The position numbers and the translations under genes were made by a program. 64,000 nt of DNA from an uncultured Hyphomicrobiales bacterium (lineage in GTDB: Bacteria; Bacteroidota; Ignavibacteria; Kapaibacteriales; UBA2268): positions 44,882 through 108,881 of the forward strand of contig CAZDXB010000007.1 in NCBI GenBank assembly GCA_964509335.1, in the 5' to 3' direction. The notes below the pieces were generated by a model, which saw only the letters and a list, made by a program, of their open reading frames with translations, searched no databases and had not been told where the DNA came from. Positions 1 to 48,508 of the stretch are shown piece by piece (position 1 is the first letter of the stretch; the number at the start of each line of letters is the position of its first letter).

Positions 1-1342
1 ACAATTTCCTCGGAAGGTCTGACTGAGTTTCCGCTCCGCCTTCTTCGTCGTCTTTTTTTTCCTCTTTCTTTTTGTCCTTCTCTTTCTTGACTCTTTCAGG
101 ACCGGACGAAGGCGTCATTCCCGCGGCGAGAACGACCAAATCCGCTTCCACGGAAATTTGCTCGCCCATAAACGTATCGTCGGCTTCTATCGTGATTTTG
201 CCGTCTTCGCCTTCGCTTACTTCTTTTATTTCGCCTTTGGTTAAAAATATATTGTCTTCGTATTGAACTCTCTTGTAGAATTTTTCGTAATTCCCCGGCG
301 TTCTGACGTCTTTATAAATAACGTATATCGCCGCGTTCGGATATTTCTCCCTGATATACATCGCTTGCTTAAAAGTGGCGGTGCAGCATACGTTCGAGCA
401 ATACGGCAGATGTTCCGGGTCTCTGGAGCCGGCGCATTGTATAAAAGCTACGCTCTTAATATCGCCGCCGTCCGAAGGCTTCTTGAGACCGCCGTTACTC
501 GCCATCTCTTCCACTTCGATATTGGTAACTACGTTCTTGATTTTGCCGTAGCCCAAATGACCCAATCGTTCCGCCGGATAAGGCTTCCAACCGGTAGCTT
601 GAACTATCGAGCCGACCTGAAAGCTCAAATCCTCGTCGCCTATTTTAGCGTTTACGTCAAACTGCCCCGGTTGCCCGGAGATTTTCTTAATAAAGCAATT
701 CGTCAATACTTTAATATTCGGATTAGCTTCGACCTCCGCGATTAGCGAATCGCAGGTGTTCGGCTCTAAAGAGAAATACGGAGCCTTCGTCGGAGCCAAC
801 TTATATAGCTTTTTAAAGAAACCGCCAATGTTTTCGTCTTTTTCGGCTAAAACGACGTTGTAGCCGGTCTTCGCTGCCGATAAAGCGGAGTTCATGCCCG
901 TTACGCCGCCGCCGACAACGAGAATAGTGTCGTTAATATCCAATACCATCGGTTTGGGAACGTTCGCCAGTCTCGCTTTTGCGACTCCCATTCTCATATA
1001 GTCGAGAGCCAAATCCTGAGTGTGCTGGTCGTTAGGTTCGTGAGACCAAGCGACGCCTTCTCTAAGGTTAACTCTTTCAACGAAAGTGTCGCCGTTAAAA
1101 TCAAAAATATCTTTGTGATACCTCGGCGAGCTCGCGCCAATAACAACGGCGTCCAGCGACTCCGCCTCGATATCTTTACGTATTTCGTCCGCCGCCCCGT
1201 CCGTGCAAAGCTTCTTATGAGTTTTGCATACGGCGACGTCTTTTTCCTCTTTCAATGTTTCGACGATTTTGTCGCAATCGAACGTATCGCCGATTCCTTC
1301 TCCAGTATATATATAAACGCCGATTTTCTTTTCTTCAGCCAT
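1..1342 (-). CDS. HdrA-like FAD/Fe-S flavoprotein, QmoB-like; start and N-terminal region only, the gene runs off the window edge
   Basis: This reverse-strand ORF is absent from the supplied track because it has no stop inside the window. ATG at 1342-1340 is preceded by an AAAGAGGAG RBS. Translation MAEEKKIGVYIYTGEGIGDTFDCD... shows a ~140-aa Cys-containing N-terminal domain, then a Rossmann motif (ILVVGGGVTGMNSALSAAKTGYNVVLAEKDENIGG), then CAGSRD and CC motifs as in the heterodisulfide reductase subunit A family. A low-complexity KEKDKKKEEKKDDEE linker sits near the window edge. Confidence 0.55.
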   Translation of the reverse strand, partial: MAEEKKIGVYIYTGEGIGDTFDCDKIVETLKEEKDVAVCKTHKKLCTDGAADEIRKDIEAESLDAVVIGASSPRYHKDIFDFNGDTFVERVNLREGVAWSHEPNDQHTQDLALDYMRMGVAKARLANVPKPMVLDINDTILVVGGGVTGMNSALSAAKTGYNVVLAEKDENIGGFFKKLYKLAPTKAPYFSLEPNTCDSLIAEVEANPNIKVLTNCFIKKISGQPGQFDVNAKIGDEDLSFQVGSIVQATGWKPYPAERLGHLGYGKIKNVVTNIEVEEMASNGGLKKPSDGGDIKSVAFIQCAGSRDPEHLPYCSNVCCTATFKQAMYIREKYPNAAIYVIYKDVRTPGNYEKFYKRVQYEDNIFLTKGEIKEVSEGEDGKITIEADDTFMGEQISVEADLVVLAAGMTPSSGPERVKKEKDKKKEEKKDDEEGGAETQSDLPRKL

Positions 1343-1343
1343 A

Positions 1344-2627
1344 TCACGAACTCCTCTTTATTATTTGAATTGCTTTTAAGGCGGCGCCGGTAGCTTCCTG
1401 AACGCAGCTAGCGACGTCTTTAGGTCCCGTTGCCGTCCCGCAACCGATTATCGAATCGCTAAGGTCGGTTCTGATGAATCCGTTCTCGTCCATTGTCGAT
1501 TTATCCAACAACGCTCCGTTCAAAGCGAGCGTCGGTTGCATTCCGGTAGCCAAAACAGCCATATCCACTGCTTTTTGTTTTAGCTCGCCTGCCATCGTAT
1601 CTTCCGCTTCCACTATCAAATCTTGACTTTCGTAATCCTTGAACACTTTGGCGACCTTGCCTCGGTGCCAGAAAATCTTTTCGTCCTCTTTCGTGTCGGA
1701 ATAAAAGTCTTCCAAAGCCCCCGGAGCGCGCAAGTCTATATAGAAGATATGTATCTCGGCGTCCGGATACTGCTCTCTCAAGTATCTCGCCTGTTTCATC
1801 GAGGCTAAACAGCATACCGTAGAACAGTATTCGAGATGATTTTCGTCTCTAGAGCCGGCGCATTGAACGAACGCTACTTTCTTTAATTCCTTGTCCATTC
1901 CGGGAATAACGATTTTCCCTTCCGTCGGTCCGTTAGGAGCCGCTAAGCGCTCCATCTCGACATTCGTAATTACGTTAGGCTCTTTGCCGTAGCTGAGGTA
2001 ATCTAAATTCTTTGCGTCGTATGGATTCCAGCCCGTGGCAAAAACAATCGCCTTAGTATTTATCTCTACAGTTTCTTCGCTTTGATTTGTATCAATGCAA
2101 TCGCCGCAACTGGACGAAACCTCTTTAATTTGCTCTTCGGTCAATTCGTCCTTGTCGAATGTGTATCTCATAGGAAAAGCGTTGTTATACGGCAGGTTCA
2201 CCGCTTTTTTCTTCGACAGCCCGTAATCGAAATCGTTGTCAATTTCGACGGGACAGTTTTTCGAGCATTCCTCTATAGCTTCTTGGTCCGAAGCGTCCTT
2301 CAAGTAGCGCGGTTTAATCTTAACTTTTGTTTTGTAATCGCCCGACTCGCCTTCAATAGCGACCGGTTCGGCTTGCGTGAAGTAATTAATATTAGAACTT
2401 TCCGTAAGCCTTTTTACGTTAATCTCTAAACCGCAAGTGGGCGGACATAATTTCGGGAAATAATGATTGAACTGCACGACTCTGCCGCCTAAATACGGTT
2501 TCTTTTCCAGCAAGATAACCGAATATCCTGTTTCGGCGGTTTCCAAAGCCGCGGTCATTCCGGCGATTCCGCCGCCCACGACTAATAAATCCGCTGTTAG
2601 CTTATTGTTATCCATTGAACCATCCAT
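1344..2627 (-). CDS. HdrA-like FAD-dependent oxidoreductase, QmoA-like (427 aa, no ferredoxin insert)
   Basis: ORF track 427 aa. N-terminal VVGGGIAGMTAALETAETGYSVILLEKKPYLGGR dinucleotide-binding motif, then CAGSRDENHLEYCSTVCC, which is typical of HdrA/QmoA. The size and the missing Fe-S ferredoxin domain match QmoA. It lies immediately upstream of the second HdrA-like gene (1342..1), a qmoA-qmoB-like order. Confidence 0.6.
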   Translation of the reverse strand: MDGSMDNNKLTADLLVVGGGIAGMTAALETAETGYSVILLEKKPYLGGRVVQFNHYFPKLCPPTCGLEINVKRLTESSNINYFTQAEPVAIEGESGDYKTKVKIKPRYLKDASDQEAIEECSKNCPVEIDNDFDYGLSKKKAVNLPYNNAFPMRYTFDKDELTEEQIKEVSSSCGDCIDTNQSEETVEINTKAIVFATGWNPYDAKNLDYLSYGKEPNVITNVEMERLAAPNGPTEGKIVIPGMDKELKKVAFVQCAGSRDENHLEYCSTVCCLASMKQARYLREQYPDAEIHIFYIDLRAPGALEDFYSDTKEDEKIFWHRGKVAKVFKDYESQDLIVEAEDTMAGELKQKAVDMAVLATGMQPTLALNGALLDKSTMDENGFIRTDLSDSIIGCGTATGPKDVASCVQEATGAALKAIQIIKRSS

Positions 2628-2895
2628 TATTCATACATAATTTATTTAGCGTAGAATTGTGTTTCATCTTTTTACATAAGTATGCCAAATAACAAACAAA
2701 TTGAATTATACAAATCTGAAATTATAATAGTTTAGCTCGTATTACAAATTTTAAAACTTTATTGTAATCTCGGTGTTGTCAACTCTAAGCGATTAATATA
2801 TTTGCAGATATATTAAATCGTTTAATTTTTTTTGTTCTATCTCGCCTAATAATCTTATCTTTGAACTTTATTTTCAATAATAAATAGGAACAGTT

Positions 2896-3855
2896 ATGAA
2901 AACTAAAATAATTACGTTAACGATTGTATTTGCTATAATCATAGCTGGAAAATTGGAAGCTCAAGAATCGGACTCCGTGAAAACATCTCCTTTATTCGAC
3001 GCGGGCGGCAAAGCTTCCTTGGTTTTCAATCAAATAGCGTTCGTTAACTGGGCGAAGGGCGGCGAAAACGCTTTTTCTACAACTAGCTTAGTCAATCTCT
3101 ACGCCAATATGAAGAAAAATAAATTATCTTGGGAGAATAACGCCGACTTAAAGTTCGGCTTACAAAACTCAGAGCAATACGGATTGAGATTCAACGAAGA
3201 TTTAATCGACCTTTCCAGCAAATTCGGCTATAAAGCTCTCGAACAATTTTATTATACGTTTCTGATGAACTTCAAAAGCCAATTCGCCGCCGGATATAAT
3301 TATCCCGACGACTCTACGGAGGTATCAAGATTTATGGCTCCCGGCTACCTAATAGTCTCTTTAGGTATGGACTACCAACCGACGGATTACCTATCTTTAT
3401 ATATATCGCCGATGACGGGCAAGTTCATTTTCGTGCAGGACGAGGAAATAGCCAATCGCGGTTCATATACCAACGAACCCGCTAAAAGAGACGCCGACGG
3501 AGCCATAATACAAAAAGGCGCTCAATCGCTAGCCGATTTCGGAGCGTATTTAAAAGCGAATTTCAAATACGAAATCTTTGAAAACATAGAAATAGCCTCT
3601 AAACTAGAGCTTTTTAACAACTACACCGACAAAAACATCAGCAACCGGGCGAACATCGACGTTGATTTGGAGACAAACATAAATATGAAAGTAAACGAAT
3701 TTATTTCGGCGGGCGCTTTCTTTCGATTATTATACGACCACGACATTAAATCTCCAATTTACAAAATGATAGAAGGCGATAAAACTAAAGTCGGCGAAGG
3801 TCCTCGTCTGCAAGTTAAAGAGTCGATAGGAATCAGCATTTCATATACGTTGTAA
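2896..3855 (+). CDS. DUF3078-like outer-membrane beta-barrel protein with signal peptide
   Basis: N-terminal signal peptide (MKTKIITLTIVFAIIIAGKLEA). The motif FVNWAKGGENAFS resembles the NW..GG signature of DUF3078. Composition is rich in alternating aromatic residues and the protein ends in aromatic ...ISYTL. Confidence 0.45.
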   Translation: MKTKIITLTIVFAIIIAGKLEAQESDSVKTSPLFDAGGKASLVFNQIAFVNWAKGGENAFSTTSLVNLYANMKKNKLSWENNADLKFGLQNSEQYGLRFNEDLIDLSSKFGYKALEQFYYTFLMNFKSQFAAGYNYPDDSTEVSRFMAPGYLIVSLGMDYQPTDYLSLYISPMTGKFIFVQDEEIANRGSYTNEPAKRDADGAIIQKGAQSLADFGAYLKANFKYEIFENIEIASKLELFNNYTDKNISNRANIDVDLETNINMKVNEFISAGAFFRLLYDHDIKSPIYKMIEGDKTKVGEGPRLQVKESIGISISYTL

Positions 3856-3873
3856 TAGCTGATTTTTCAACTC

Positions 3874-3920
3874 GTTCCGTCCGCTCCCGCGGCGGAACGC
3901 ATACTAAGAAGCTCTGCGTC
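3874..3920 (+). repeat. REP-like palindromic element family 1 (GTTCCGNCCGCTCCNGCGGCGGAAC + GACGCTCCGCGTC), copy a
   Basis: Imperfect inverted repeat GTTCCGTCCGCTCCCGCGGCGGAAC followed by a second small palindrome. Five further copies are in this window. This copy sits 19 bp after the stop of the DUF3078 gene. Confidence 0.8.
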
Positions 3921-4180: not shown

Positions 4181-4441
4181 TTATCCGTAATGCGTCCACA
4201 TTTTAAGTATCTTAATTATCCTATCTTTTTCGTAAACTTGATAAACCAATCTATGTTGTTTATTTATCCTTCTTGATACGAATCCTTTTAATCTTCCTTT
4301 TAAGATTTCGTATTTAGGAGGATACGAGAACGGATCTTCCTTAATTATATCAAGCAATTTCTGAACTTTGCTTTTTAAATTTGATGCGGCAATTTTCTTT
4401 GAATCTTCTCGCGCTTGTTTAGTGAAATATATCTCCCACAT
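4181..4441 (-). CDS. yoeB: YoeB/Txe-family type II toxin (RelE/ParE superfamily)
   Basis: 86 aa. ...GFVSRRINKQHRLVYQVYEKDRIIKILKMWTHY matches the YoeB C-terminal catalytic region (RRI...HRLVY...RYHY-like). It is directly abutted by an upstream small antitoxin ORF. Confidence 0.75.
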   Translation of the reverse strand: MWEIYFTKQAREDSKKIAASNLKSKVQKLLDIIKEDPFSYPPKYEILKGRLKGFVSRRINKQHRLVYQVYEKDRIIKILKMWTHYG

Positions 4442-4654
4442 TTACCATTCTAAGCTTTTTGAGCAGTCGTCTAATTTTTCTTTTGAAGCTTCTATAATTG
4501 AATCGGCGACGCCGGGAATACTTTCCAGATATTCAGTGTCGCTTTCTTTTTTATGCTTTTCTTTCAAAAAAATGGCGTAGTCAAGCAAATCTTGAAGATA
4601 ATAGTATGGTATTTCGTCGATTATCTTTATCAAATTTGATTGTAAACGGTTCAT
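4442..4654 (-). CDS. Putative antitoxin partner of YoeB (small acidic protein, not obviously YefM-like)
   Basis: 70-aa ORF whose stop abuts the yoeB start (4442/4441). Acidic C-terminus. The organisation is typical of a type II TA operon. Confidence 0.5.
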   Translation of the reverse strand: MNRLQSNLIKIIDEIPYYYLQDLLDYAIFLKEKHKKESDTEYLESIPGVADSIIEASKEKLDDCSKSLEW

Positions 4655-21231: not shown

Positions 21232-21660
21232 TTACAAATCTTTGATAACGTGCTTGACGACGCCTTGAATTTCGAAACGCCAGAACGGTTTTATTTCGAT
21301 TGGAAGGAAGTTTTTGTTCGCGGAGAAGAGGTATATAGCGCCGTCGATTACTCTAAGCGTTTTTACGGCTAACTCGCCGTTTACGGCGGCGATAACGACT
21401 TTTCCGTTTTTGGGTTCTTCGCTCGAATCGACCACTAGAATATCGCCGGCGTCTATTCCTTCCTCTATCATACTGTCGCCGACCACTCTGACCAGATAGG
21501 TGTTTTTTGGATTTGGCGTCAAATACGCTTTGAGGTCTATTTTTCTTATTCCGCTACCGTTCTTCTTAGCTAATCCGAGCGGTATAGCGGTTTTATAGAC
21601 TTCTGTCTCAAAGGCGTACTTAGCGCTCACCTTTATCGTTTTGTCTATTTTTGTTCCCAT
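21232..21660 (-). CDS. UmuD/LexA-like S24 peptidase domain protein (no DNA-binding domain); Ser/Lys dyad intact
   Basis: 142 aa. VVGDSMIEEGIDAGDILVVD holds the Ser nucleophile and NGELAVKTLRVI the Lys of the S24 dyad. No N-terminal wHTH. Leu-Gly sits where the Ala/Cys-Gly cleavage site is expected. Confidence 0.75.
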   Translation of the reverse strand: MGTKIDKTIKVSAKYAFETEVYKTAIPLGLAKKNGSGIRKIDLKAYLTPNPKNTYLVRVVGDSMIEEGIDAGDILVVDSSEEPKNGKVVIAAVNGELAVKTLRVIDGAIYLFSANKNFLPIEIKPFWRFEIQGVVKHVIKDL

Positions 21661-21663
21661 AAG

Positions 21664-22089
21664 CTAAAGCGAATGAATTACTTTTGTTACAAGCCCGAGT
21701 ATTTCGAATTTGACGTAGGGATTGATTTCCATAGGCAGAAATTGATTGTTAGTCGATTGAAGAAAAGCTTCTCCGTCGAAGACCCTATAGACTTTCAACG
21801 TCAATTCCTCGTTGCATCGCGCTACGACAATTTTGCCGTCTTTAGGTTCGAGCGACGAGTCGAATATAACCAAATCGTCGTCTCGGACGCCCAAATCCGC
21901 CATAGCGTCGCCGCAGACTTTTGCGAAAAAAGTCGCCGCCGGATGTTTGACGAGAAATTCGTTAATGTCAACCTCTTCGTCCTTCTCGCTGCCGACCGAA
22001 ACAGGCGTTCCGGCGGAAACGGACATAGAATAAAGAGGCGCTTTCTCGCCCGCTCCCGGCTCTAAAGCGAAAACTTCTTTTAGTTCCAT
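21664..22089 (-). CDS. UmuD-like S24-fold paralog with nucleophile Ser replaced by Ala (GDAM) but a canonical Ala-Gly cleavage site
   Basis: 141 aa. VCGDAMADLGVRDDDLVIFD aligns with GDSM of the neighbour but is S->A. The Lys is retained (EELTLKVYRV). VSAGTP places Ala-Gly exactly 35 residues upstream, as in UmuD/LexA. Confidence 0.7.
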   Translation of the reverse strand: MELKEVFALEPGAGEKAPLYSMSVSAGTPVSVGSEKDEEVDINEFLVKHPAATFFAKVCGDAMADLGVRDDDLVIFDSSLEPKDGKIVVARCNEELTLKVYRVFDGEAFLQSTNNQFLPMEINPYVKFEILGLVTKVIHSL

Positions 22090-22705: not shown

Positions 22706-23635
22706 TTAGTAGGAGTTTTGGGCGACTTCTTCTGCAAATAACGATTTTTGAGCAATTGTATCGTCTTCTCCGTGATTGTGATCTTTAATATTTTTGTCCA
22801 ATTCAAAATTACATACTAAAGCTTCTACTATTCTATTTCTATTTTCAATTTTACCGCCCGAATGATAGAAATGGTCTCTTGTGATTATGTTGAAATTGTC
22901 CCAATATTTATTTATCATTTCGTTGTTACGGAAGTCGTTGTGATGCCAAGTAGAAAGGATAAAATAAGCGTCCGTCTCTTTTAATTGGTTGAACAATAAT
23001 TCTTCTTCCTTTTCGGACCAGCCGTTGTAATAATCTACATAACGTCCGAGATACGGAGGATCGCAATATATAATATCGCCCTTTCTAGCCTTAGGTATAA
23101 CTTTATGAAATTGCTCGTTCAGAAATATCCATTCCTTTCCAATTCTTCTCTTTGCTTTATAGGCTTGATTTACAATTTTAGTAATGTAAGATTTCGAAAA
23201 TCTATTTGGTTTTTTACAAAACGGTATATTCCATTCCCCTTTTTTATTGAATCTCATCATTCCGTTAAATGCGGCTCTAGAAAGAAAAATGAAATCTAAC
23301 GACGACCCTTCTTCGTTAAATCTATTTTTAACGAATCTGTAATGAACGTAGCCGTCTTCTTTTGCGTTTCTTAAATTCTCGCCTTCTTTTTTTAAGTATA
23401 TCCTCACGGTTTCAGGAGTTATGTCGTTGTTTTGTAGCTCTTTGTAGAACTTTATGATATGAGGATTTATATCGTTTAGTATTGCTTTCTCAAAATTCAA
23501 ATTTAGAGCGACAACTCCGGTTCCCAAAAAAGGTTCTACCCAACGTCCGCTTGAACTTGGAGCAATCGATTTTATCCACGGGACTAATTTTGTTTTAATA
23601 CCCTGGCTTTTTATAGGCGGCACGCAAACTTTCAT
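22706..23635 (-). CDS. Dam-family (alpha-class) N6-adenine DNA methyltransferase, M.EcoRV-like
   Basis: N-terminal motif PPIKSQGIKTKLVPWI (AdoMet/Dam K.QG.K motif) and catalytic DPPY (IIYCDPPYLGR). Overlaps the start of the adjacent EcoRV-like endonuclease by 4 nt. Confidence 0.85.
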   Translation of the reverse strand: MKVCVPPIKSQGIKTKLVPWIKSIAPSSSGRWVEPFLGTGVVALNLNFEKAILNDINPHIIKFYKELQNNDITPETVRIYLKKEGENLRNAKEDGYVHYRFVKNRFNEEGSSLDFIFLSRAAFNGMMRFNKKGEWNIPFCKKPNRFSKSYITKIVNQAYKAKRRIGKEWIFLNEQFHKVIPKARKGDIIYCDPPYLGRYVDYYNGWSEKEEELLFNQLKETDAYFILSTWHHNDFRNNEMINKYWDNFNIITRDHFYHSGGKIENRNRIVEALVCNFELDKNIKDHNHGEDDTIAQKSLFAEEVAQNSY

Positions 23636-24555
23636 AACGTTTTCTTTCTTTTTTTAGCTCCTTTTAATATAACTTTTTTGAATAAATCTTTTCTTCCTTT
23701 GAACTCTAAAAAATCCCAAATATTAGTAATTTTTACCGTCTTGTCTTTTTTAACCATAGTGGCTTCTCCATAGTTCATCCAGTATTCGTCAAACCATTCC
23801 TCGCCTAAATTACTGAATACGCCATTTTCATTTTTCAAATCTTTAATGTCCTTAATAGAACCAATATTTGCAGTATTGCCCGACCCTCTACTATCGCTTG
23901 CTATTTTCCATTTTTCCGCTACGAAAAAGTCAAAATCTTTAATTATGGAAGTTAAGGAAACCAATTTATCGACAGTTCTAATTCGCTTTTTATTAAAGGA
24001 GTTTCTAAACTCTTCTTTGCATTCGTTCAGCTCTTTAACGCGATAAATTTCAGTTTCTCCAAGTTTATCGGAATAATCAATTTTCGAATAAATAATACCT
24101 AAACAATAATGCCCAAGATATTGATTATATGGAAATTGTATGTTCTTATCTTTATTCCTTTCTTTGAAATAACCGCCGTGGCTCCCTAACGTGAAGCCTG
24201 CGGTCTTGTCGTTTCGTCTGTAAGTAGTTTTTAGATCTAATGCAAACTTAACGTCGTCGTTGTTCTTATAAATGAACGTTAAATCAGGATAGTAATTCTG
24301 TTTTTCCGCTAGTATAATTTTGTAATCATTTTCTTCCGCAAATTTTAAAATCAACGGGAAAATGTGGGTTTCAAGGATTTTCGATACAATTTTTGTATCC
24401 GGCGATATCGTATATATATTCTTATAAATATCTATAAATCCTTTAATCGTCCAGCTACCGTCGTCCGAAGAAACATAATCCTTGAGTTCTAATACAAATT
24501 TTTTTAGATTGTTTGAAAATTCTCTTTTATACTTTTTCTTTTCCAATAATTTCAT
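23632..24555 (-). CDS. Type II restriction endonuclease, EcoRV family (predicted GATATC specificity)
   Basis: From recall of R.EcoRV, collinear matches include: DTKIVSKILE (EcoRV DTKVLSTIFE); AEKQNYYPDLTF (EPKQQNHYPDFTL, Asp74 region); ALDLKTTY (AIDIKTTY, Asp90/Lys92); FTLGSHGGYF; QFPYNQYLGHYCLGIIYS (VYPFDQYIAHWIIGYVYT); KWKIASDSRGSGNTANIGSI (KWVIAGDLAGSGNTTNIGSI); WFDEYWMNY (FLDYWRNY). Confidence 0.8.
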   Translation of the reverse strand: MKLLEKKKYKREFSNNLKKFVLELKDYVSSDDGSWTIKGFIDIYKNIYTISPDTKIVSKILETHIFPLILKFAEENDYKIILAEKQNYYPDLTFIYKNNDDVKFALDLKTTYRRNDKTAGFTLGSHGGYFKERNKDKNIQFPYNQYLGHYCLGIIYSKIDYSDKLGETEIYRVKELNECKEEFRNSFNKKRIRTVDKLVSLTSIIKDFDFFVAEKWKIASDSRGSGNTANIGSIKDIKDLKNENGVFSNLGEEWFDEYWMNYGEATMVKKDKTVKITNIWDFLEFKGRKDLFKKVILKGAKKRKKTL

Positions 24556-34869: not shown

Positions 34870-35457
34870 ATGAAAAAGATAATTTTGTTAATAATAGGTT
34901 TAATGTTTTTATCGTTTGTAATTTTGAAATCGCAACCAGCTTGCGAGCCTTGTTCATCTCAAACTACTTGGGCAAATGCACCTGTTAGTGTTTTACACGT
35001 TGTAATATCTGGTTCGGGATGCGAATTTGACGTTGAATACCAAACAATATTCTGCCTGACAGATGGAACTTGTAATTTTAGAATATTAAAACTCTACAAT
35101 ATTTTGGAGGCTTGCGACGGTTATGGTCCATTGGAATTACTAGAACAAGCGGCGCTGCAAATTATAAAAAACGATGGTATGTTCAAACAATGCTGGCCAT
35201 CTGGCTCTGGAGATTGTGTAGAACAAACTAGAGAGTGGTCCGCGGCTTGCTGGAAGTGGAAAGGAAACGTTGGTCCAGGACCGGGAACTACAGCTACGCT
35301 TAAGCCTTGCGAAACAGAGTCCTGTTGCGAATCCTATTATATGATTTGTAATGAAGGAGGAGCAATTATTGTTTATAAAACATATACAGAGGCAACTCAT
35401 CCTTGCGTGAATCCCGGTCCTGAGTGCTTTATAAGATGTGATTCTGGAGAAAAATAA
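34870..35457 (+). CDS. Cysteine-rich secreted protein (195 aa, ~19 Cys), uncharacterised family; paralog of 38875-39450
   Basis: Signal peptide MKKIILLIIGLMFLSFVILKS. C.PC near the mature N-terminus and the motif GCEFDVEYQTIFC match C.C and HCVFEAYYC in the paralog. The first 17 nt of the CDS are identical to the paralog, as part of the duplicated leader. Confidence 0.6.
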   Translation: MKKIILLIIGLMFLSFVILKSQPACEPCSSQTTWANAPVSVLHVVISGSGCEFDVEYQTIFCLTDGTCNFRILKLYNILEACDGYGPLELLEQAALQIIKNDGMFKQCWPSGSGDCVEQTREWSAACWKWKGNVGPGPGTTATLKPCETESCCESYYMICNEGGAIIVYKTYTEATHPCVNPGPECFIRCDSGEK

Positions 35458-35467
35458 GGAGTAAAAT

Positions 35468-35992
35468 ATGAAAAAAATAATGTATATAATCGTGATGGCG
35501 TTAATGTTAACGATTATTTCGTCGGAGCAAAAATTAGACGCCAAAACAATATCGTTTGACGAAATTAAATACAAAACGTTTATTTATTATAACTTAGAAG
35601 ATAATTATGTTAAAAGATTTTACGAAGGATATTCTCTTAAAGAATACTTGCCGGTTAAAAAAGTAAAAGAGATAAAAAATAATCTGGAAACAATAAGGAA
35701 TGATAGCCAAGCTAAAATAGAAAATTTCGATTGTTTCAACGTCGATATAAGAATTTATCCGAATCCCGCTAGTAGTTATTTTAACGTTTCGCTAAATTCT
35801 GACGACGATATTAAGGAAGTGAAGATAGAGATAATAGACAAATTGGGAAGAACTATTCGCGTTTACAATCGCGAAGGATTGAAAGGAAAAAATAAAGTTA
35901 GAATAGATTTAAGCGGCGTTGAGAAAGGTAGCTACATAGTTAGAGCGGCAATAGGCTCGGCGATGAAAACGGCAAAATTAATCGTTTATTAG
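35468..35992 (+). CDS. Small protein consisting mainly of a T9SS C-terminal sorting domain
   Basis: 174 aa, signal peptide. The C-terminal ~80 aa IRIYPNPASSYFNVSLN...IEIIDKLGRTIRVYN...IDLSGVEKGSYIVRAAIGSAMKTAKLIVY matches the T9SS type-A CTD pattern. Confidence 0.6.
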   Translation: MKKIMYIIVMALMLTIISSEQKLDAKTISFDEIKYKTFIYYNLEDNYVKRFYEGYSLKEYLPVKKVKEIKNNLETIRNDSQAKIENFDCFNVDIRIYPNPASSYFNVSLNSDDDIKEVKIEIIDKLGRTIRVYNREGLKGKNKVRIDLSGVEKGSYIVRAAIGSAMKTAKLIVY

Positions 35993-36062
35993 AGAAGGAT
36001 AAAAGGGGAGGGAATAAATTCTCTCCCCTCGAATTTTCAATAAAAATCGGAGGCTTAATAAA

Positions 36063-38219
36063 ATGAAACGAAATATAATGTTATCAATATTAATATTTAC
36101 CGCTTCTTTCGCCGTTTGTTTTTCCCAGTTAGTTCCAAAATGGGAAATTGGCGCAGCGTCATTTACTCATAATGAATACAGATACGACGGATACCAATTT
36201 AATAAAATAGCGGGAACGAGTGAAAACGATATTATCGTTTTAGGTCAAAGTTACAATGCTGAAAATGGTTATTTTCCTGCAATTTGGCGTTTTAAAAATA
36301 AAGCCGACGAAAGAGAAATATTATATACAGACACAACTAAACAAGATAAAGGCCCCGATATCGCTACTCACGAGTTTAGGTCAATCGCGAAACCCGCACA
36401 TAACTACATAATCGCCGTCGGGGATTCTAACAAATATCAAGGAGAGTTTAAAGTCGAAGGAAAATTCGGCGAAGCTTGGCAAGAGTTTTATTTTAGAACT
36501 GGTTTTATGTTAATCTCAACCGACGGCGGCGAAAGTTGGAATAAAACAACGCTCGATTCTAACACCAAGTTAAACGAGGTAAGAATGCTCGATAACGACT
36601 ATGGGGTAATACTCGAGGAAGGTTGGGAGAATTATTACAACCAAAGAGAATTAATAAATAACGACACTTTGCTAATAACTAAAGACGGATGGAAAACATA
36701 CGAACAAATAAAACTTCCAGAAACAATAGAATATCCGGACGATATTTTCATTTTATCAAAGGATACGTTGGCTATTTTATGCTGGGACGCGGACACAAAA
36801 CGAACGTTTATTATTTTTTCCTACGACGGCGGCAAAAATTGGGAAGACGAATTTTACTTCGACGAAACCGTTCGTATTCAGGATATTGAATTTATAGGAA
36901 ACAAAGCTTACGCCGTTGGATGGTACGAACCGAGTTTATTGTCCGACACCGTTACTAATCCTTATGTTGATATTTCCGTTCAATTTCCTTATATCGCTTA
37001 TAGCGAAAATCGCGGACGTTCTTGGAGAAAACTCGAAAGCTTTCCAGTAGAAATTAACGATATAATTAAAGATTACGGACATAGGTTATACAGCGTTGAT
37101 TTTTGCGACAGTATAAACGGTATCGTAAGCGGATTTAGCGACAGTGCGAATCCTTACGTTTTTAAAACGACCGACGGCGGCGAAAGTTGGGAACGAGAAT
37201 ATTTGCCCTTTAGTTATCACAATCAAGCTTTGCTTATGAATATATATTTTCCGAGAAAAAATTACGCTCTAGTTTTTAATCAATCCAGATATGTTTACAA
37301 ATATGAAGGCGATAAACTTTTGGCTATGCCGAAATTTTATAAATTTAGCAACGTTCCAATAGAGAATTTGAAATTGAGATGGGCGTCGATAGAAGGGGCT
37401 AAAAATTATAGAATAAAAATTGACAGCACGAGAAAATGGTTTAGCGAATCTACCGGAATTAAAACCTATCCCGAGCCGGATTTCGAAAGTCCAATTATCG
37501 ATACTACAATAGCAGATACGTCTGTACTATTTGAGAAACTTATGTACGAATCGCGCATAGTCGCTTTTGTGAAAGCTATCGGCGAGTCGAGAGAAAGTTA
37601 CTGGCGTCGCTATATATTTGTAACTAATACTAGAGAAAATTATTTATATCAACCGAAGTTTGTATTTCCTAAATCTGTTACGATTATACGTGAATCGAGA
37701 GCGGAATTTAAATGGCGCGCTGTTAAGCCCGCAACCAAATATTACTTGACCATAGAAAATAAAGCTAACAGAGAAGTAATATTCAGGGATACGTTATCAG
37801 CCGTAGATACTAGCGTCGTAGTAATCGGTTTCGAGCCGAACACGGGTTATATGGCGCGTTTAGAAGCGACGAGAGGAAATGAATCATCCGGGGACTTAGC
37901 TTTTTTTATAACGGCGACGGAGTTGCCTGTTAGAGAGCGCAAAGAATACGAACCGATAACGAGTTTACGTATTTACCCTAACCCGACTTATTCTAGTATT
38001 AATCTTTCCGTGAATTTAAAAAGCCGAAGCAAAATTGAAATAGATTTGATAAATAGTTGGGGTTCAAAAATTGACAGGATATTTGGCGGTTATCAAACTG
38101 ACGGTTGTCATACTTTCCGCCATGCGCCGGAACCGGATTTGCCATCGGGAACGTATTGGATACGAGCGACTATTGACGGAGAGAAGCAAGTAGCAAAGCC
38201 GGTTGTGATATTAAAATAG
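36063..38219 (+). CDS. BNR/Asp-box repeat beta-propeller protein with FN3-like domains and T9SS C-terminal sorting domain
   Basis: 718 aa, signal peptide. Asp-box repeats STDGGESWNKT, SYDGGKNWEDE, TTDGGESWERE. FN3-like segments (KLRWASIEGAKNYRIKID; EFKWRAVKPATKYYLTIEN). C-terminal LRIYPNPTYSSINLSVN...VVILK CTD. Confidence 0.7.
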   Translation: MKRNIMLSILIFTASFAVCFSQLVPKWEIGAASFTHNEYRYDGYQFNKIAGTSENDIIVLGQSYNAENGYFPAIWRFKNKADEREILYTDTTKQDKGPDIATHEFRSIAKPAHNYIIAVGDSNKYQGEFKVEGKFGEAWQEFYFRTGFMLISTDGGESWNKTTLDSNTKLNEVRMLDNDYGVILEEGWENYYNQRELINNDTLLITKDGWKTYEQIKLPETIEYPDDIFILSKDTLAILCWDADTKRTFIIFSYDGGKNWEDEFYFDETVRIQDIEFIGNKAYAVGWYEPSLLSDTVTNPYVDISVQFPYIAYSENRGRSWRKLESFPVEINDIIKDYGHRLYSVDFCDSINGIVSGFSDSANPYVFKTTDGGESWEREYLPFSYHNQALLMNIYFPRKNYALVFNQSRYVYKYEGDKLLAMPKFYKFSNVPIENLKLRWASIEGAKNYRIKIDSTRKWFSESTGIKTYPEPDFESPIIDTTIADTSVLFEKLMYESRIVAFVKAIGESRESYWRRYIFVTNTRENYLYQPKFVFPKSVTIIRESRAEFKWRAVKPATKYYLTIENKANREVIFRDTLSAVDTSVVVIGFEPNTGYMARLEATRGNESSGDLAFFITATELPVRERKEYEPITSLRIYPNPTYSSINLSVNLKSRSKIEIDLINSWGSKIDRIFGGYQTDGCHTFRHAPEPDLPSGTYWIRATIDGEKQVAKPVVILK

Positions 38220-38239
38220 CTTCGAATATCATTAAACTC

Positions 38240-38313
38240 TTCCGTCCGCTCCAGCGGCGGAACGCATATTGAGACGCTCCGCGTCGTTTTTTCTTTGCCG
38301 CGCAGAGCGCGGG
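38240..38313 (+). repeat. REP-like element family 1, extended copy d (three hairpins: GTTCCG..CGGAAC, GACGCTCCGCGTC+T6, CCGCGCAGAGCGCGG)
   Basis: Begins 21 bp after the 36063-38219 stop. The long form is shared with copy e. Confidence 0.8.
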
Positions 38314-38335
38314 TTATTTTGGAATGAGGGGGAAG

Positions 38336-38874
38336 AGGGCGCTAACGATAGGCGGTAAACCGACACGCCTTAGCGGTCGGCAATCGTATCGCGGCAATAT
38401 TGAGCGCTGGCAAATAGTTAAAGCTATCGGTTGCCGAAAGATTACTTTGAAATATCGCATAGTTTTTGTGCGTATAAACCAATATAATATAAAATATTTA
38501 TAGAATATCTATGTTCACATGTGAACATTTTCAGCCCGCTATGTTCATATGTGAACATAGCTTAAATAATAAAAATAATATTTGGATTGTATAAATATTG
38601 TTTTTATATTTGTATCGGAATGTTATAAGTCCATATATATATATGATTTACAAAAATAAATAGAGGAGGCGTAAATTTGCCGAACATAATAGTTTTAGAA
38701 GGGCGAAGATTAAAACTGCCTAAATAAAGGACCGGCGAGAGTAAGCCGCGTCGCCGGTCCAATTATTGCGTCAAAGCGCGTTCCCGAGTTAAAGATGTTA
38801 TATTCGCGTTATAACTGCGGCTCGGGAACGCCTCCTATAATAACAATTGCAAATTTAATAAAAAGGAAAGAGTT
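38336..38874 (+). promoter_or_regulatory. Conserved non-coding leader, copy 2 (100-bp block 38336-38440; unique AT-rich segment with two perfect palindromes at 38511-38528 and 38539-38560; 310-bp block 38566-38874 with uORF 38677-38727 MPNIIVLEGRRLKLPK and the same two stem-loops)
   Basis: See copy 1. Palindromes ATGTTCACATGTGAACAT and CTATGTTCATATGTGAACATAG, read directly. Confidence 0.6.
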
Positions 38875-39450
38875 ATGAAAAAGATAATTTTAATATCGAT
38901 AACAATAGTCTTATTAGGATTAACTTTTAGCGCTAATAAGCTTAACGCACAGTGCGATTGCCCTCAAGACATACCGCCAACGAATATACCTTGGACTGTG
39001 GAAGGTCCCCATTATATCTTCATATACGACGACGAAGGTGACCATTGCGTTTTTGAGGCATATTATTGCTGGCGTAAAATTCTAGATTATTATCCGTCGC
39101 CGGAAATTCAAGTTGTTGTTTGTAAATATAGTCCTACGGAAGATTGCAACGAGAATTTTAATCTTTCGGTTTGGGAAATATATAAAAAATTGGGAATAAA
39201 AATAATTGAATTAAATCCAGATAATTTAGATTGGCCCGCTCCACCTTGTCCATATGGTTATCCATATTACTCAGTAGTAACTTTCGGTTGCTATGATGTA
39301 TATGACGAAACCCCGTGCGGCGGTTTAGTGTATTGTAAATACTTATTTGAAGTTTGTATGAGTGCGGGTCAAAGGATAACTAAGCCATTAGGAGCGACGA
39401 CGGTTGGAGACGAATGTCCGGTCGGGTGCGATAACAAATGCGGCGATTAA
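38875..39450 (+). CDS. Cysteine-rich secreted protein (191 aa, ~18 Cys), divergent paralog of 34870-35457
   Basis: Signal peptide MKKIILISITIVLLGLTFSANKLNA. Mature QCDCPQD...; HCVFEAYYC; C-terminal ECPVGCDNKCGD. Confidence 0.6.
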   Translation: MKKIILISITIVLLGLTFSANKLNAQCDCPQDIPPTNIPWTVEGPHYIFIYDDEGDHCVFEAYYCWRKILDYYPSPEIQVVVCKYSPTEDCNENFNLSVWEIYKKLGIKIIELNPDNLDWPAPPCPYGYPYYSVVTFGCYDVYDETPCGGLVYCKYLFEVCMSAGQRITKPLGATTVGDECPVGCDNKCGD

Positions 39451-39476
39451 TGATTGTAATAAAAAAGGAACTTGCT

Positions 39477-47337: not shown

Positions 47338-48447
47338 TTAACGCCAATTAATAAGCATCGAAAAACGCATAGTGTTCGCTAGCGGATGGTTCGCTTCGAC
47401 AGTGTTAATGTAACTGAAGTCAAGCTGGAACATATCGTAACGAACTCCGGCGCCGAAATTATAAAACTTTCTGTTGCCTAAGGTGGAAGGCTCCCAGAAA
47501 TAGCCTCCTCTAAGAGCGACGAGATGTTGGTACCAATACTCCAATCCGAAAGAAACTTCCGCTCCGGGATTTTCCCAGCCGGTGATTAAAGATTTCGGCA
47601 ACGGGTCGGAGTCGATAGAATCTCTTTTGACTAATAGCTTCGAAACGTCAAAAGCGAACTTCAATTCGTTAAATTCGTTTTCGAATACTTTAATTGCCGT
47701 GCCGACTCTCAAAGTAGTGGGAAGCGGGTCGGCTTCGTTTCTGTAAGTCATTTTCGGACCTACGTTCTGGATATTAAAACCTAAAGCGATTCTGTCCCGA
47801 ATAGGAAGTCCGAAAACGTTCAAATCTTGCGGCGACCACAGTATGCCCAAATCAAAAGCGCCGCTGATTCCGGTGCCGGCTCCTTCGTTCTGTCCGGGAG
47901 CGGCGGGCGCTAAGTTCGATTGTATATATTTAAGTTGAACTCCGACAGCTAAGTCTCTCGCCACTATTGTTCCGTAAGCGATATTAAAAGCGAATTCGCT
48001 CGAAAGGAATTTTCCGAGAACTCTGCCGCTTTCGTGAGTTCTGGTAAATTCGCCTAAGTTCATAAAAGTAAAATTAGCGGCGACGGTTCCGTCGAGTTCT
48101 TCGAAGAATTGACCGAATGTTCCGTAACTGTAAAATAAATCAGCGTTAAATTGCGGCAGCCATCGCGAAAAGGCGAACGCTATTTGCCTCCAAGGGCTGT
48201 AGTCGTCCGGGTTTGTCGGATTCACGAAATAGTCGTGAAACCCTAAACCGGCGGGATTCCAGTAAATAGCGTTTATATCGTCGGCTATTGCCGTGCCTAC
48301 CTCGCCCATTCCGCTAGCTCTGGCGTCGGGTGAAATCAATAGGAAGGGAACGGCGGCGCCGCCCGCTTGCGATTTCGCTACGTTTGTGGAAAACCCAAAA
48401 ACTAGTAGGGCTATTAGTATGATTTTTAGTTTGCTTAACCGTTTCAT
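47338..48447 (-). CDS. porV: T9SS outer-membrane shuttle protein PorV (LptO) family, FadL-like beta-barrel
   Basis: 369 aa, signal peptide. N-terminal AAVPFLLISPDARASGMGEVGTAIADD, as in PorV-family proteins. Immediately downstream of a C25-peptidase PorU-like gene, the canonical porU-porV order. Ends in aromatic ...LINWR. Confidence 0.65.
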   Translation of the reverse strand: MKRLSKLKIILIALLVFGFSTNVAKSQAGGAAVPFLLISPDARASGMGEVGTAIADDINAIYWNPAGLGFHDYFVNPTNPDDYSPWRQIAFAFSRWLPQFNADLFYSYGTFGQFFEELDGTVAANFTFMNLGEFTRTHESGRVLGKFLSSEFAFNIAYGTIVARDLAVGVQLKYIQSNLAPAAPGQNEGAGTGISGAFDLGILWSPQDLNVFGLPIRDRIALGFNIQNVGPKMTYRNEADPLPTTLRVGTAIKVFENEFNELKFAFDVSKLLVKRDSIDSDPLPKSLITGWENPGAEVSFGLEYWYQHLVALRGGYFWEPSTLGNRKFYNFGAGVRYDMFQLDFSYINTVEANHPLANTMRFSMLINWR

Positions 48448-48508
48448 CTTTATTCCTCCTAAATTTTATTTTAATAATTTATTTTCATTTATTCCAAAAA
48501 TAATACCA

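What the first reader, a model, noticed from the sequence alone, without database searches (positions are those of the whole stretch)
1..2627. Tandem HdrA-like paralogs in a qmoA-qmoB-like arrangement at the window edge
A 427-aa HdrA-like flavoprotein without a ferredoxin insert, QmoA-like, is followed by a larger HdrA-like protein with an extra Cys-containing N-terminal domain, QmoB-like, which runs off the window start.

This order matches qmoABC of sulfate reducers and sulfur oxidisers, where it neighbours aprAB and sat. It may instead belong to another Hdr/Flx-type electron-bifurcating complex.

Either reading points to sulfur or redox energy metabolism that is not typical of T9SS-bearing heterotrophs.
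Basis: partly seen in the sequence, partly recalled or inferred. Interest (0 to 1): 0.5.

Follow-up and report, generated by a model that had tools for sequence, protein, structure and literature searches.

The report
Unlinked QmoA-QmoB pair, Kapabacteria type
Two neighbouring flavoprotein genes are real relatives of the QmoA and QmoB electron-transfer subunits of sulfate reducers, but here, as in a whole lineage of Kapabacteria-like bacteria, they sit apart from every known partner gene, so they do not show that this organism respires sulfur.

Summary
On the minus strand, a 427-aa HdrA-like ORF (1344-2627) is followed one base later by a second HdrA-like ORF (1342 to 1) that runs off the window. 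An identical public contig completes the second ORF to 755 aa, with a C-terminal 2x[4Fe-4S] ferredoxin and an MvhD-like domain. That is the QmoB architecture.

NJ trees place both proteins inside the Qmo family. They fall in a monophyletic Kapabacteria/Ignavibacteria-type clade (99 and 96 of 100 bootstraps) that includes the qmoAB of a close relative of the sulfate reducer 'Ca. Thermonerobacter'.

The local context is not qmoABC-aprBA-sat:
- The gene after qmoB encodes the start of a roughly 777-aa all-alpha TPR-like protein, not QmoC or HdrBC.
- No apr, sat or dsr gene was found in the 64-kb window.
- None lies within 8-10 kb of the pair in ten related loci.

This subclade has also lost Cys ligands. 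QmoA keeps 3 of the 8 Cys in its ferredoxin insert. QmoB has lost three of its N-terminal cluster ligands.

Verdict: a new member of a known kind (unlinked Kapabacterial qmoAB). Whether it serves APS reductase here cannot be decided without the rest of the genome. Interest is modest.

The parts
1344..2627 (-). qmoA-like gene: an HdrA-type FAD/[4Fe-4S] flavoprotein of 427 aa (423 aa by the public gene call)
   Evidence: ORF. HdrA2 E=6e-105 and PDB HdrA E=2e-76. JGI names its relatives QmoA. It falls in the Qmo clade. The GxGxxG motif and the 4-Cys CxGSRD...C..CC motif are intact.
2106..2291 (-). Degenerate ferredoxin insert of QmoA (about aa 113-174). Only C121, C125 and C174 remain of the eight cluster ligands.
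   Evidence: Alignment to the HdrA insert. Cys-column table and alignment block. No Fer4 Pfam hit.
1..1342 (-). qmoB-like gene, first 447 of 755 codons. The rest (ferredoxin domain and MvhD-like domain) lies beyond the window start.
   Evidence: Completed from the identical contig L001. VhuD/MvhD-like match at aa 621-753, E=1e-13. The full protein is on the 141,445-bp NCBI contig.
938..1342 (-). N-terminal HdrA-type domain of QmoB (about aa 1-135) with an incomplete cluster-ligand set: Y12, E15 and S71 where canonical QmoB has Cys. C39 and C46 are kept.
   Evidence: Alignment to HdrA residues 10-140. Cys columns and alignment block.
383..436 (-). Intact FAD-proximal 4-Cys motif of QmoB (C303, C315, C319, C320).
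   Evidence: Cys table; sequence.
2628..2895 (.). AT-rich intergenic region between qmoA (-) and the divergent DUF3078 gene (+). Presumed promoter region of the qmoA-qmoB-(TPR-like gene) transcription unit.
   Evidence: Sequence. No terminator-like site lies between qmoA, qmoB and the next gene on their strand. The promoter itself is inferred, not shown.

Best explanation
These are the QmoA and QmoB subunits of the Kapabacteria-type, 'unlinked' version of the Qmo complex.

Shown:
- Two translationally coupled, paralogous HdrA-type flavoproteins.
- QmoA keeps its FAD site and the FAD-proximal [4Fe-4S] motif.
- QmoB keeps FAD, the proximal [4Fe-4S] motif, a C-terminal 2x[4Fe-4S] ferredoxin domain and an MvhD-like domain.
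- They belong to a monophyletic clade, nested in canonical apr-linked Qmo, in which qmoAB is never next to qmoC, aprBA or sat. In the window's subclade the pair is usually followed by a roughly 777-aa TPR-like solenoid gene.
- A close relative of 'Ca. Thermonerobacter thiotrophicus' has the same arrangement.

Inferred:
- As published for Thermonerobacter, where sat-aprBA-hyp-hyp-qmoC-dsr lies elsewhere in the genome, the pair forms the cytoplasmic electron-transfer head. It docks on a QmoC encoded at a distance and passes menaquinol-derived electrons through the QmoB Fe-S chain and the flavins to APS reductase.
- The solenoid protein would act at most as a scaffold.
- The lost clusters (QmoA insert, QmoB N-terminal domain) mean a shortened electron path compared with canonical Qmo.

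My confidence that these are Qmo-family orthologs of the Kapabacterial type is about 0.9. My confidence that they serve APS reductase in this particular organism is about 0.45. The stated confidence is the second figure.
For: - Architecture and homology.
- Paralogy and translational coupling.
- Nearly all other QmoB loci recovered by the scans (58% identity or less) are (sat)-aprBA-qmoABC clusters.
- NJ trees: the Kapabacteria/Ignavibacteria-type clade is monophyletic in 99 of 100 (QmoA) and 96 of 100 (QmoB) bootstraps. It is nested in canonical Qmo. Its sister is a Zixibacteria type in which qmoAB abuts dsrAB.
- The window proteins are 67% (QmoA) and 75% (QmoB) identical to those of L067. L067's downstream 777-aa protein is in the same 90%-identity cluster as ROL62233.1 of the ChocPot_Mid MAG of 'Ca. 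Thermonerobacter'.
- PMC6338057 reports qmoAB apart from sat-aprBA-hyp-hyp-qmoC-dsr, and all 20 sulfate-reduction genes, qmoAB included, in the night-expressed classes.
- PMC7509429 reports a closed Kapabacteria genome with the full pathway, Qmo included.
- Thermonerobacter DsrAB is closest to Zixibacteria DsrAB, which matches the Qmo tree.
- Cofactor-ligand losses also occur in canonical, apr-linked Qmo lineages, so they do not argue for loss of function.
Against: - No qmoC, hdrBC, aprBA, sat or dsr was found in the 64-kb window or in the 1.1 kb known beyond it. None lies within 8-10 kb in ten related loci.
- The clade includes MAGs labelled Kapaibacterium, Kapaibacteriales, Kapaibacteriota and Ignavibacteria. 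The literature reports dsrAB only in Kapabacterial family UBA2268 (PMC10591310) and describes other members of this lineage (the OPB56 clade) as chemoheterotrophs (PMC6338057). Most carriers of this pair may therefore not respire sulfate.
- In Thermonerobacter two conserved hypothetical genes occupy the slot between aprA and qmoC where qmoAB normally lie. Even there the role of the unlinked pair is assumed, not shown.
- Night expression is shared by about 44% of that organism's genes.
Confidence: 0.45

Rival explanations
1. The pair is an orphan module descended from Qmo with a role independent of APS reductase. The organism would be a non-sulfate-reducing Kapabacteria-like heterotroph. The pair would act as a soluble FAD/Fe-S electron-transfer unit that uses QmoB's ferredoxin and MvhD-like domains to exchange electrons with another partner, such as a ferredoxin, a thiol/disulfide protein or a distant membrane complex. 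The conserved 777-aa solenoid protein might serve as its scaffold.
For: - The pair is conserved across a broad clade with shuffled flanks and never sits beside apr, sat or qmoC.
- The same ~777-aa gene follows qmoB in 8 of 9 genomes of the window's subclade. The gap is 23-76 nt in six of them and 213 and 395 nt in L059 and L062, and L001 shows no terminator there.
- Contig-length matches suggest the same link in the subclade that keeps all its clusters (P0053 with P0141).
- Cluster ligands erode progressively and variably within the subclade, which suggests relaxed or changed constraints.
- The literature restricts dsrAB to one Kapabacterial family.
Against: - No genome carrying this pair has actually been shown here to lack the sulfate-reduction pathway.
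- The nearest characterised carrier is a predicted sulfate reducer that expresses the pair together with the pathway genes.
- The 777-aa family also occurs without qmoAB, in a Gammaproteobacteria MAG after cox/ctaB and in a Bacteroidota contig before adk. Conversely, L081 and L082 have the pair without it. The linkage may therefore be inherited synteny.
- No alternative partner or substrate is identified.
Confidence: 0.4
2. The two proteins are HdrA subunits of a heterodisulfide-reductase or Flx-Hdr type electron-bifurcating complex, not Qmo.
For: The best curated-model hits are HdrA2 and HdrA, and the only solved homologs are HdrA. NCBI names some relatives 'CoB--CoM heterodisulfide reductase iron-sulfur subunit A family protein'.
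Against: - Scores are far below the curated cut-offs: 352 and 437 bits against 1100 for HdrA2, and 278 and 266 bits against 1400 for HdrA.
- No hdrBC, flxABCD or mvh genes lie nearby, here or in relatives.
- The QmoA form (no N- or C-terminal domains) and the QmoB form (no inserted ferredoxin; C-terminal ferredoxin plus MvhD) are Qmo architectures.
- Trees put both proteins inside Qmo, with only 30-33% identity to an HdrA-like pair.
Confidence: 0.04
3. The pair is a decaying remnant of a lost sulfate-reduction gene set and no longer functions.
For: Fe-S ligands are lost in two domains, in patterns that differ between relatives. No partner genes are nearby.
Against: - Both reading frames are intact and tightly coupled.
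- The FAD motifs, both proximal 4-Cys motifs, all 8 ferredoxin Cys and the MvhD-domain Cys are invariant across the clade.
- The pair is retained down to 55-75% identity in many lineages.
- G+C has followed each host genome.
- The Thermonerobacter ortholog is among the highly transcribed genes.
Confidence: 0.04

Closest known systems
qmoAB of 'Candidatus Thermonerobacter thiotrophicus' and Kapabacteria Ch6 (family UBA2268): PMC6338057, PMC7509429
   Same: - Same clade in both trees. The window proteins are 67% (QmoA) and 75% (QmoB) identical to the Thermonerobacter-like locus L067.
- The same gene order, qmoA, qmoB, then a 777-aa TPR-like gene.
- The same lost Cys ligands.
- qmoAB is unlinked from sat-aprBA-qmoC in both.
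- The hosts are T9SS-bearing members of the Bacteroidota/Chlorobi group.
   Different: - That organism is known to carry sat, aprBA, qmoC and dsr elsewhere. For the window's genome this is unknown.
- The window sequence branches outside the Thermonerobacter/L059/L060/L061 group.
- The window's host has higher G+C: 42%, against 34-38.5% for the three Thermonerobacter MAGs.
Canonical QmoABC of sulfate reducers and sulfur oxidisers (Desulfovibrio; Chlorobaculum sat-aprBA-qmoABC)
   Same: The QmoA and QmoB domain architectures, the qmoA-then-qmoB order, the FAD and proximal [4Fe-4S] motifs, and QmoB's ferredoxin and MvhD-like domains. Identity is 42-58%.
   Different: - No adjacent qmoC and no aprBA or sat neighbourhood.
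- The two clusters of the QmoA insert and the QmoB N-terminal cluster lack full ligand sets.
- A TPR-like gene sits where qmoC would be.
Zixibacteria-type qmoAB (locus L006 and relatives)
   Same: It is the sister group in both trees. It also has no qmoC directly after qmoB, and its QmoA has already lost the second cluster of the insert.
   Different: There qmoAB is followed directly by dsrAB-dsrD-dsrN, a clear link to the sulfate-reduction pathway. Its QmoB N-terminal Cys are intact.
HdrA of methanogens (PDB 5ODC, 8RVU)
   Same: The thioredoxin-reductase-like FAD domain with the CxGSRD...C..CC cluster. QmoB also shares the N-terminal domain.
   Different: Identity is about 30-40%. There are no HdrBC partners. 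The domain arrangement differs. Curated HdrA cut-offs are missed by a wide margin.
QmoAB-HdrBC of Gram-positive sulfate reducers (arrangement as reviewed in PMC8477390)
   Same: It shows that QmoAB can work without QmoC.
   Different: There hdrBC directly replaces qmoC in the operon. Here the next gene has no redox motifs or CCG domains: it is all-alpha and has no Pfam hit beyond a faint TPR match.

Membership tests
Qmo complex (QmoABC) | QmoA: an HdrA-like FAD flavoprotein of about 400-430 aa without HdrA's N- and C-terminal domains | tested here: met
   427 aa. It aligns to HdrA residues 143-562 only. The GxGxxG and 4-Cys motifs are present.
Qmo complex (QmoABC) | QmoB: an HdrA-like protein with a C-terminal 2x[4Fe-4S] ferredoxin and an MvhD-like domain, about 740-780 aa | tested here: met
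   755 aa on the identical contig L001. Fer4 and FlpD hits. VhuD-like match at aa 621-753. All ferredoxin and MvhD-domain Cys are conserved.
Qmo complex (QmoABC) | Phylogenetic placement inside the Qmo clade rather than with HdrA or other flavoproteins | tested here: met
   NJ trees with 100 bootstraps nest both proteins among apr-linked Qmo. These are distance trees only; no maximum-likelihood tree was made.
Qmo complex (QmoABC) | A membrane or quinone module (qmoC, or hdrBC in its place) encoded with qmoAB | tested here: not met
   The next gene is the N-terminus of a 777-aa TPR-like family member. No qmoC or hdrBC lies within 8-10 kb in ten related loci. Whether one exists elsewhere in this genome cannot be tested with these tools.
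Qmo complex (QmoABC) | Genomic association with aprBA and sat | tested here: not met
   No match was found among the 30 larger window ORFs scanned against Pfam, and none in the relatives' flanks. Presence elsewhere in the genome cannot be tested here.
Qmo complex (QmoABC) | Full sets of Fe-S ligands as in most canonical QmoA and QmoB | tested here: not met
   The QmoA insert keeps 3 of 8 Cys. The QmoB N-terminal domain lacks 3 of the conserved Cys. Some canonical lineages also lack some clusters, so this feature is not strictly defining.
Kapabacteria-type unlinked qmoAB (as in 'Ca. Thermonerobacter', PMC6338057) | qmoA and qmoB adjacent but separate from sat-aprBA-qmoC; same clade; followed by the 777-aa gene | tested here: met
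Kapabacteria-type unlinked qmoAB (as in 'Ca. Thermonerobacter', PMC6338057) | sat-aprBA-hyp-hyp-qmoC-dsr operon elsewhere in the same genome | not testable with these tools
   The 141,445-bp NCBI contig and the rest of the MAG could not be fetched. A DsrB search with contig-length matching was cut off at about 81% identity and gave no match to any contig carrying this pair.
Methanogen-type HdrA (NCBIfam NF041778, NF040770, NF041891) | Score at or above the curated cut-off | tested here: not met
   352 and 437 bits against 1100 for HdrA2, 278 and 266 against 1400 for HdrA, and 250 and 299 against 1300 for the Methanobacteria HdrA model.
Flx-Hdr or HdrABC electron-bifurcating complexes | Neighbouring hdrB/hdrC (CCG-domain) or flxABCD genes | tested here: not met
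   None in the window, in L001 or in the related loci.

The most novel reading that the evidence does not exclude
The Kapabacteria/Ignavibacteria-type qmoAB, often together with the uncharacterised 777-aa alpha-solenoid protein, is a soluble redox module that needs no QmoC. On this reading it was recruited from the sulfate-reduction toolkit to a different task and is kept across the class whether or not the sulfate-reduction pathway is present. 'qmoAB' hits in these genomes would then be false markers of sulfur respiration, and the trimmed Fe-S chain would reflect a new electron path.
Probability: 0.3. Interest if true: 0.55.

Novelty: new member of a known kind. Interest (0 to 1): 0.33.

Why it matters
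QmoA and QmoB hits are routinely used as markers of dissimilatory sulfate reduction or sulfur oxidation when metagenomes are annotated. This case shows a whole Bacteroidota-group lineage in which the pair is always unlinked from qmoC, aprBA and sat. Within the window's subclade the pair has fewer Fe-S ligands and usually travels with an uncharacterised TPR-like gene.

If these genomes mostly lack the rest of the pathway, the marker over-calls sulfur metabolism, and the pair has a function not yet described. If they do carry the pathway, the lineage is a natural experiment in a Qmo complex with a reduced set of cofactors.

For this window alone the practical message is caution. The finding is real, but it does not establish sulfur respiration.

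Tried and rejected
1. Exact look-up of the 427-aa ORF found nothing, because the public gene call starts 4 codons later. The 423-aa form returned only two short Logan contigs, not the 141-kb NCBI contig.
2. The genome-contig scan did not return the window's own genome. Only one close relative came back.
3. The metagenome-contig scan added one more locus of this clade, L081.
4. I searched with Zixibacteria DsrB and matched 'longest contig' lengths, to learn whether contigs carrying this qmoAB type also carry dsrB. The list stopped at about 81% identity. The only length match (165,098 bp, P0372 with P0113) belongs to the Zixibacteria-type sister group. The result is inconclusive for this clade.
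5. A literature search for the two SRA runs found nothing.
6. The 777-aa protein has no NCBIfam model and only a faint TPR_8 Pfam hit. Foldseek against the PDB returned only generic TPR/HAT scaffolds such as Ctr9, Ski3 and IFT-A, with TM-scores of 0.13-0.27 normalised to the query length. No function follows from this.
7. I checked whether the 777-aa gene is tied to a UbiA-family neighbour. The two cases are different enzymes: MenA-like below cut-off, and heme o synthase. Rejected.
8. I checked for recent horizontal transfer by G+C. The two genes (46-48%) lie about 1 SD (0.042) above the window's gene mean of 42.4%, and in relatives they follow each host's G+C. Rejected.
9. A first bootstrap attempt with Biopython's distance calculator timed out. 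I redid it with my own distance code.
Full report
**What is in the sequence**

The minus strand of window 1-2627 holds two tightly packed reading frames. ORF A runs from 2627 down to 1344 and is 427 aa. ORF B starts with the ATG at 1342-1340, one base after ORF A's TGA, behind an AAAGAGGAG ribosome-binding motif. It stays open to the window edge, so 447 aa are visible. The short plus-strand ORFs listed over the same bases lie antisense to these two long, strongly homologous genes, so I read them as non-coding; they were not tested separately.

Both proteins hit HdrA models strongly but far below the curated cut-offs: HdrA2 gives E=6e-105 and E=4e-90. Both also match solved HdrA chains, at E=2e-76 and E=3e-67. 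They are paralogs of each other, 42% identical over the core, E=4e-49.

**Completing ORF B and looking past position 1**

The public gene call for ORF A starts four codons later (P0001, 423 aa, 100% identical). It lies on a 5,013-bp Logan contig, L001, that matches window 1-3899 without a mismatch and extends 1,114 bp further.

On L001, ORF B is 755 aa. It has a 2x[4Fe-4S] ferredoxin domain and an FlpD/MvhD-like domain at the C-terminus; the VhuD-like match covers aa 621-753 at E=1e-13. This exact protein is also on record from the 141,445-bp NCBI contig that the window must come from. Together with a 427-aa HdrA core that lacks HdrA's terminal domains, this is the QmoA/QmoB architecture.

The gene 36 nt after qmoB is not qmoC or hdrBC. 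Its first 50 residues are 66% identical (E=2e-19) to the N-terminus of a roughly 777-aa protein family. No terminator-like site separates the three genes.

**Context here and in relatives**

The 64-kb window carries housekeeping genes and T9SS genes: PorU-like C25 peptidase, PorV, Por_Secre_tail cargo, LysS, GlnA, Lpd and LipB. It also holds two sensor kinases, an EcoRV-type restriction-modification pair and a toxin-antitoxin pair. I scanned 30 of the larger ORFs against Pfam and found no apr, sat, dsr, qmoC or hdrBC. The remaining smaller ORFs were not scanned.

Scans of representative genomes and of JGI metagenomes with QmoB returned about 70 loci. Nearly all of them, at 58% identity or less, are classical (sat)-aprBA-qmoA-qmoB-qmoC clusters from Desulfobacterota, Gemmatimonadota, Desantisbacteria, Bacteroidales and others.

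The close relatives of the window proteins are different. Seven further genomes carry qmoA, qmoB and then a 774-779-aa gene, with otherwise unrelated flanks and no apr, sat or qmoC within 8-10 kb. These are L059, L060, L061, L062, L063, L064 and L067. Two further members of the clade, L081 and L082/L083, have the pair alone.

**Phylogeny**

I made neighbour-joining trees with Kimura distances and 100 bootstraps, rooted on an HdrA-like pair from a Bacteroidaceae MAG. They place both window proteins inside the Qmo family. Identity is 42-58% to apr-linked Qmo proteins and 30-33% to the outgroup.

The Kapabacteria/Ignavibacteria-type sequences form one clade, supported in 99 of 100 bootstraps for QmoA and 96 of 100 for QmoB. 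Adding 20 database hits shows a grade of sequences that keep all their Fe-S ligands. These come from MAGs labelled Kapaibacterium, Kapaibacteriales, Kapaibacteriota and Ignavibacteria. From that grade arises a derived subclade with eroded ligands, which contains the window and L067.

The sister group is a Zixibacteria type in which qmoAB directly precedes dsrAB. Both first-reader tests can now be answered. Phylogeny says Qmo. The visible context says no partners.

**Link to a published organism**

The 777-aa protein of L067 is in the same 90%-identity cluster as ROL62233.1 of 'Bacteroidetes/Chlorobi group bacterium ChocPot_Mid', one of the MAGs of 'Ca. Thermonerobacter'.

Thiel et al. [quoted passage not shown] They report qmoA and qmoB adjacent to each other but elsewhere in the chromosome. 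All 20 sulfate-reduction genes, qmoAB included, fall in the night-expressed classes. A closed Kapabacteria genome with the same pathway is reported in PMC7509429.

The window proteins are 67% and 75% identical to the L067 pair. The arrangement seen here is therefore already known, though the trailing TPR-like gene and the ligand losses were not mentioned in the passages of PMC6338057 that I read.

**Cofactor sites**

Canonical QmoA carries eight Cys in an inserted ferredoxin segment. The window protein has the segment but only C121, C125 and C174, so neither cluster has a full ligand set. Relatives in the subclade retain different subsets.

Canonical QmoB has conserved Cys at positions 12, 15, 46 and 71 of its N-terminal HdrA-type domain. 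The window has Y, E, C and S at those positions, and S71 is shared by the whole eroded subclade.

Everything else is invariant: the FAD motifs, the proximal CxGSRD...C..CC motif in both proteins, all eight ferredoxin Cys and the MvhD-domain Cys. Several apr-linked lineages have lost other clusters, for example the second cluster of the QmoA insert in Desulfobacterota and the proximal motif of QmoB in some Gemmatimonadota. Ligand loss is therefore not evidence of inactivity.

**The third gene**

The 777-aa family has no Pfam or NCBIfam model apart from a faint TPR_8 hit. It has about 141 clusters (at 50% identity) with E of 1e-30 or better among 1.84 billion representatives, and its length is strikingly constant. 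It folds with high confidence (pLDDT 90.8) into about 45 helices. Structure search finds only generic TPR/HAT scaffolds. One Cys (C14) is invariant and another (C81) nearly so.

The family also occurs without qmoAB, in a Gammaproteobacteria MAG after the cox/ctaB cluster and in a Bacteroidota contig before adk. Its link to qmoAB holds in 8 of 9 genomes of the subclade. The gap between the genes is 23-76 nt in six of them and 213 and 395 nt in the other two. The link may be functional, as a scaffold, or it may simply be inherited gene order.

**Interpretation**

With confidence of about 0.9, these are QmoA and QmoB orthologs of the Kapabacterial unlinked type. What they do in this organism depends on genes I could not see.

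The reading best tied to direct evidence is the published one. The pair is the cytoplasmic head of a Qmo complex whose QmoC, together with AprBA, is encoded elsewhere. I put this at about 0.45.

Nearly as likely, at about 0.4, the pair works independently of APS reductase. The clade spans many lineages for which no dsrAB is reported (PMC10591310; PMC6338057). In Thermonerobacter two unknown genes sit in the qmoAB slot of the apr operon.

An HdrA or Flx role and a dead relic are both unlikely. G+C gives no sign of recent transfer.

**Limits**

- The trees are distance-based.
- The rest of the genome was out of reach.
- The DsrB search with contig-length matching was truncated and inconclusive.
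- The absence of the sulfate-reduction pathway from other Kapabacteria rests on the literature, not on a test made here.

**Verdict**

This is a new member of a known kind and of modest interest. Its main value is as a caution against reading qmoAB alone as a marker of sulfur respiration, and as a pointer to an uncharacterised, widely conserved solenoid protein that travels with it.

Noticed in passing
L001:4862-5011 (just beyond window position 1); full-length copies at L060:13623-15956 and L059:13752-16085: An uncharacterised, very acidic family of about 777 aa with constant length. It is an all-alpha solenoid of about 45 helices (AF2 pLDDT 90.8) with an invariant Cys14 and a near-invariant Cys81. 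There is no Pfam or NCBIfam model. About 141 clusters at 50% identity score E of 1e-30 or better. It also occurs without qmoAB, in a Gammaproteobacteria MAG after cox/ctaB (L065) and in a Bacteroidota contig before adk (L066).
   Followed up: partly
window 22706-24555 (-): A complete EcoRV-type restriction-modification pair: a D12-class N6-adenine methyltransferase (22706-23635) overlapping an EcoRV-family endonuclease (23632-24555, Pfam E=3e-100).
   Followed up: partly
window 21232-22089 (-): Two adjacent ORFs of about 141 aa, each a Peptidase_S24 (LexA/UmuD-like) domain: a tandem duplication or a split gene.
   Followed up: no
window 4181-4654 (-): A YoeB-family toxin gene (4181-4441) directly preceded by a DUF2281 antitoxin-like gene (4442-4654), three genes from qmoA.
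   Followed up: no
window 47338-52543 (-): T9SS components side by side: a 1344-aa PorU-like C25 peptidase with a Por_Secre_tail, and PorV.
   Followed up: partly
window 56563-62184 (-): A 1873-aa ORF with a signal-peptide-like N-terminus and no Pfam hit at E of 1e-4 or better.
   Followed up: no
window 34870-41954 (+): Two similar cassettes. Each has a lipoprotein-like gene of about 190 aa with a Cys-rich start, followed by a large BNR/Sortilin-repeat protein (718 and 838 aa; the second has a T9SS sorting tail). The first cassette has a further 174-aa ORF in between.
   Followed up: no
L059:1-6158 (upstream of qmoA in the closest NCBI relative): A cluster with a possible link to sulfur respiration: a Fer4_11 protein, an NrfD-cytochrome c3 fusion, a Cytochrome_cB multihaem protein, a Ni_hydr_CYTB protein, and two Sulf_transp proteins, one fused to rhodanese. 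It lies 4-10 kb upstream of the qmoAB-777 trio in that genome only.
   Followed up: no
window 2896-3855 (+); also L060 and L064: A DUF3078 gene lies divergently upstream of qmoA in three of the related genomes. This is conserved gene order of unknown meaning.
   Followed up: no
L006:9416-17549: In a Zixibacteria genome, the sister group in the trees, qmoA and qmoB are followed directly by dsrA, dsrB, a small dsrD-like ORF and a dsrN-like gene, with no qmoC in between. Only dsrA and dsrB are supported by a database match (DsrB is named as such by NCBI); the dsrD and dsrN labels are my reading of ORF size and order. This is another natural case of Qmo without an adjacent QmoC.
   Followed up: partly
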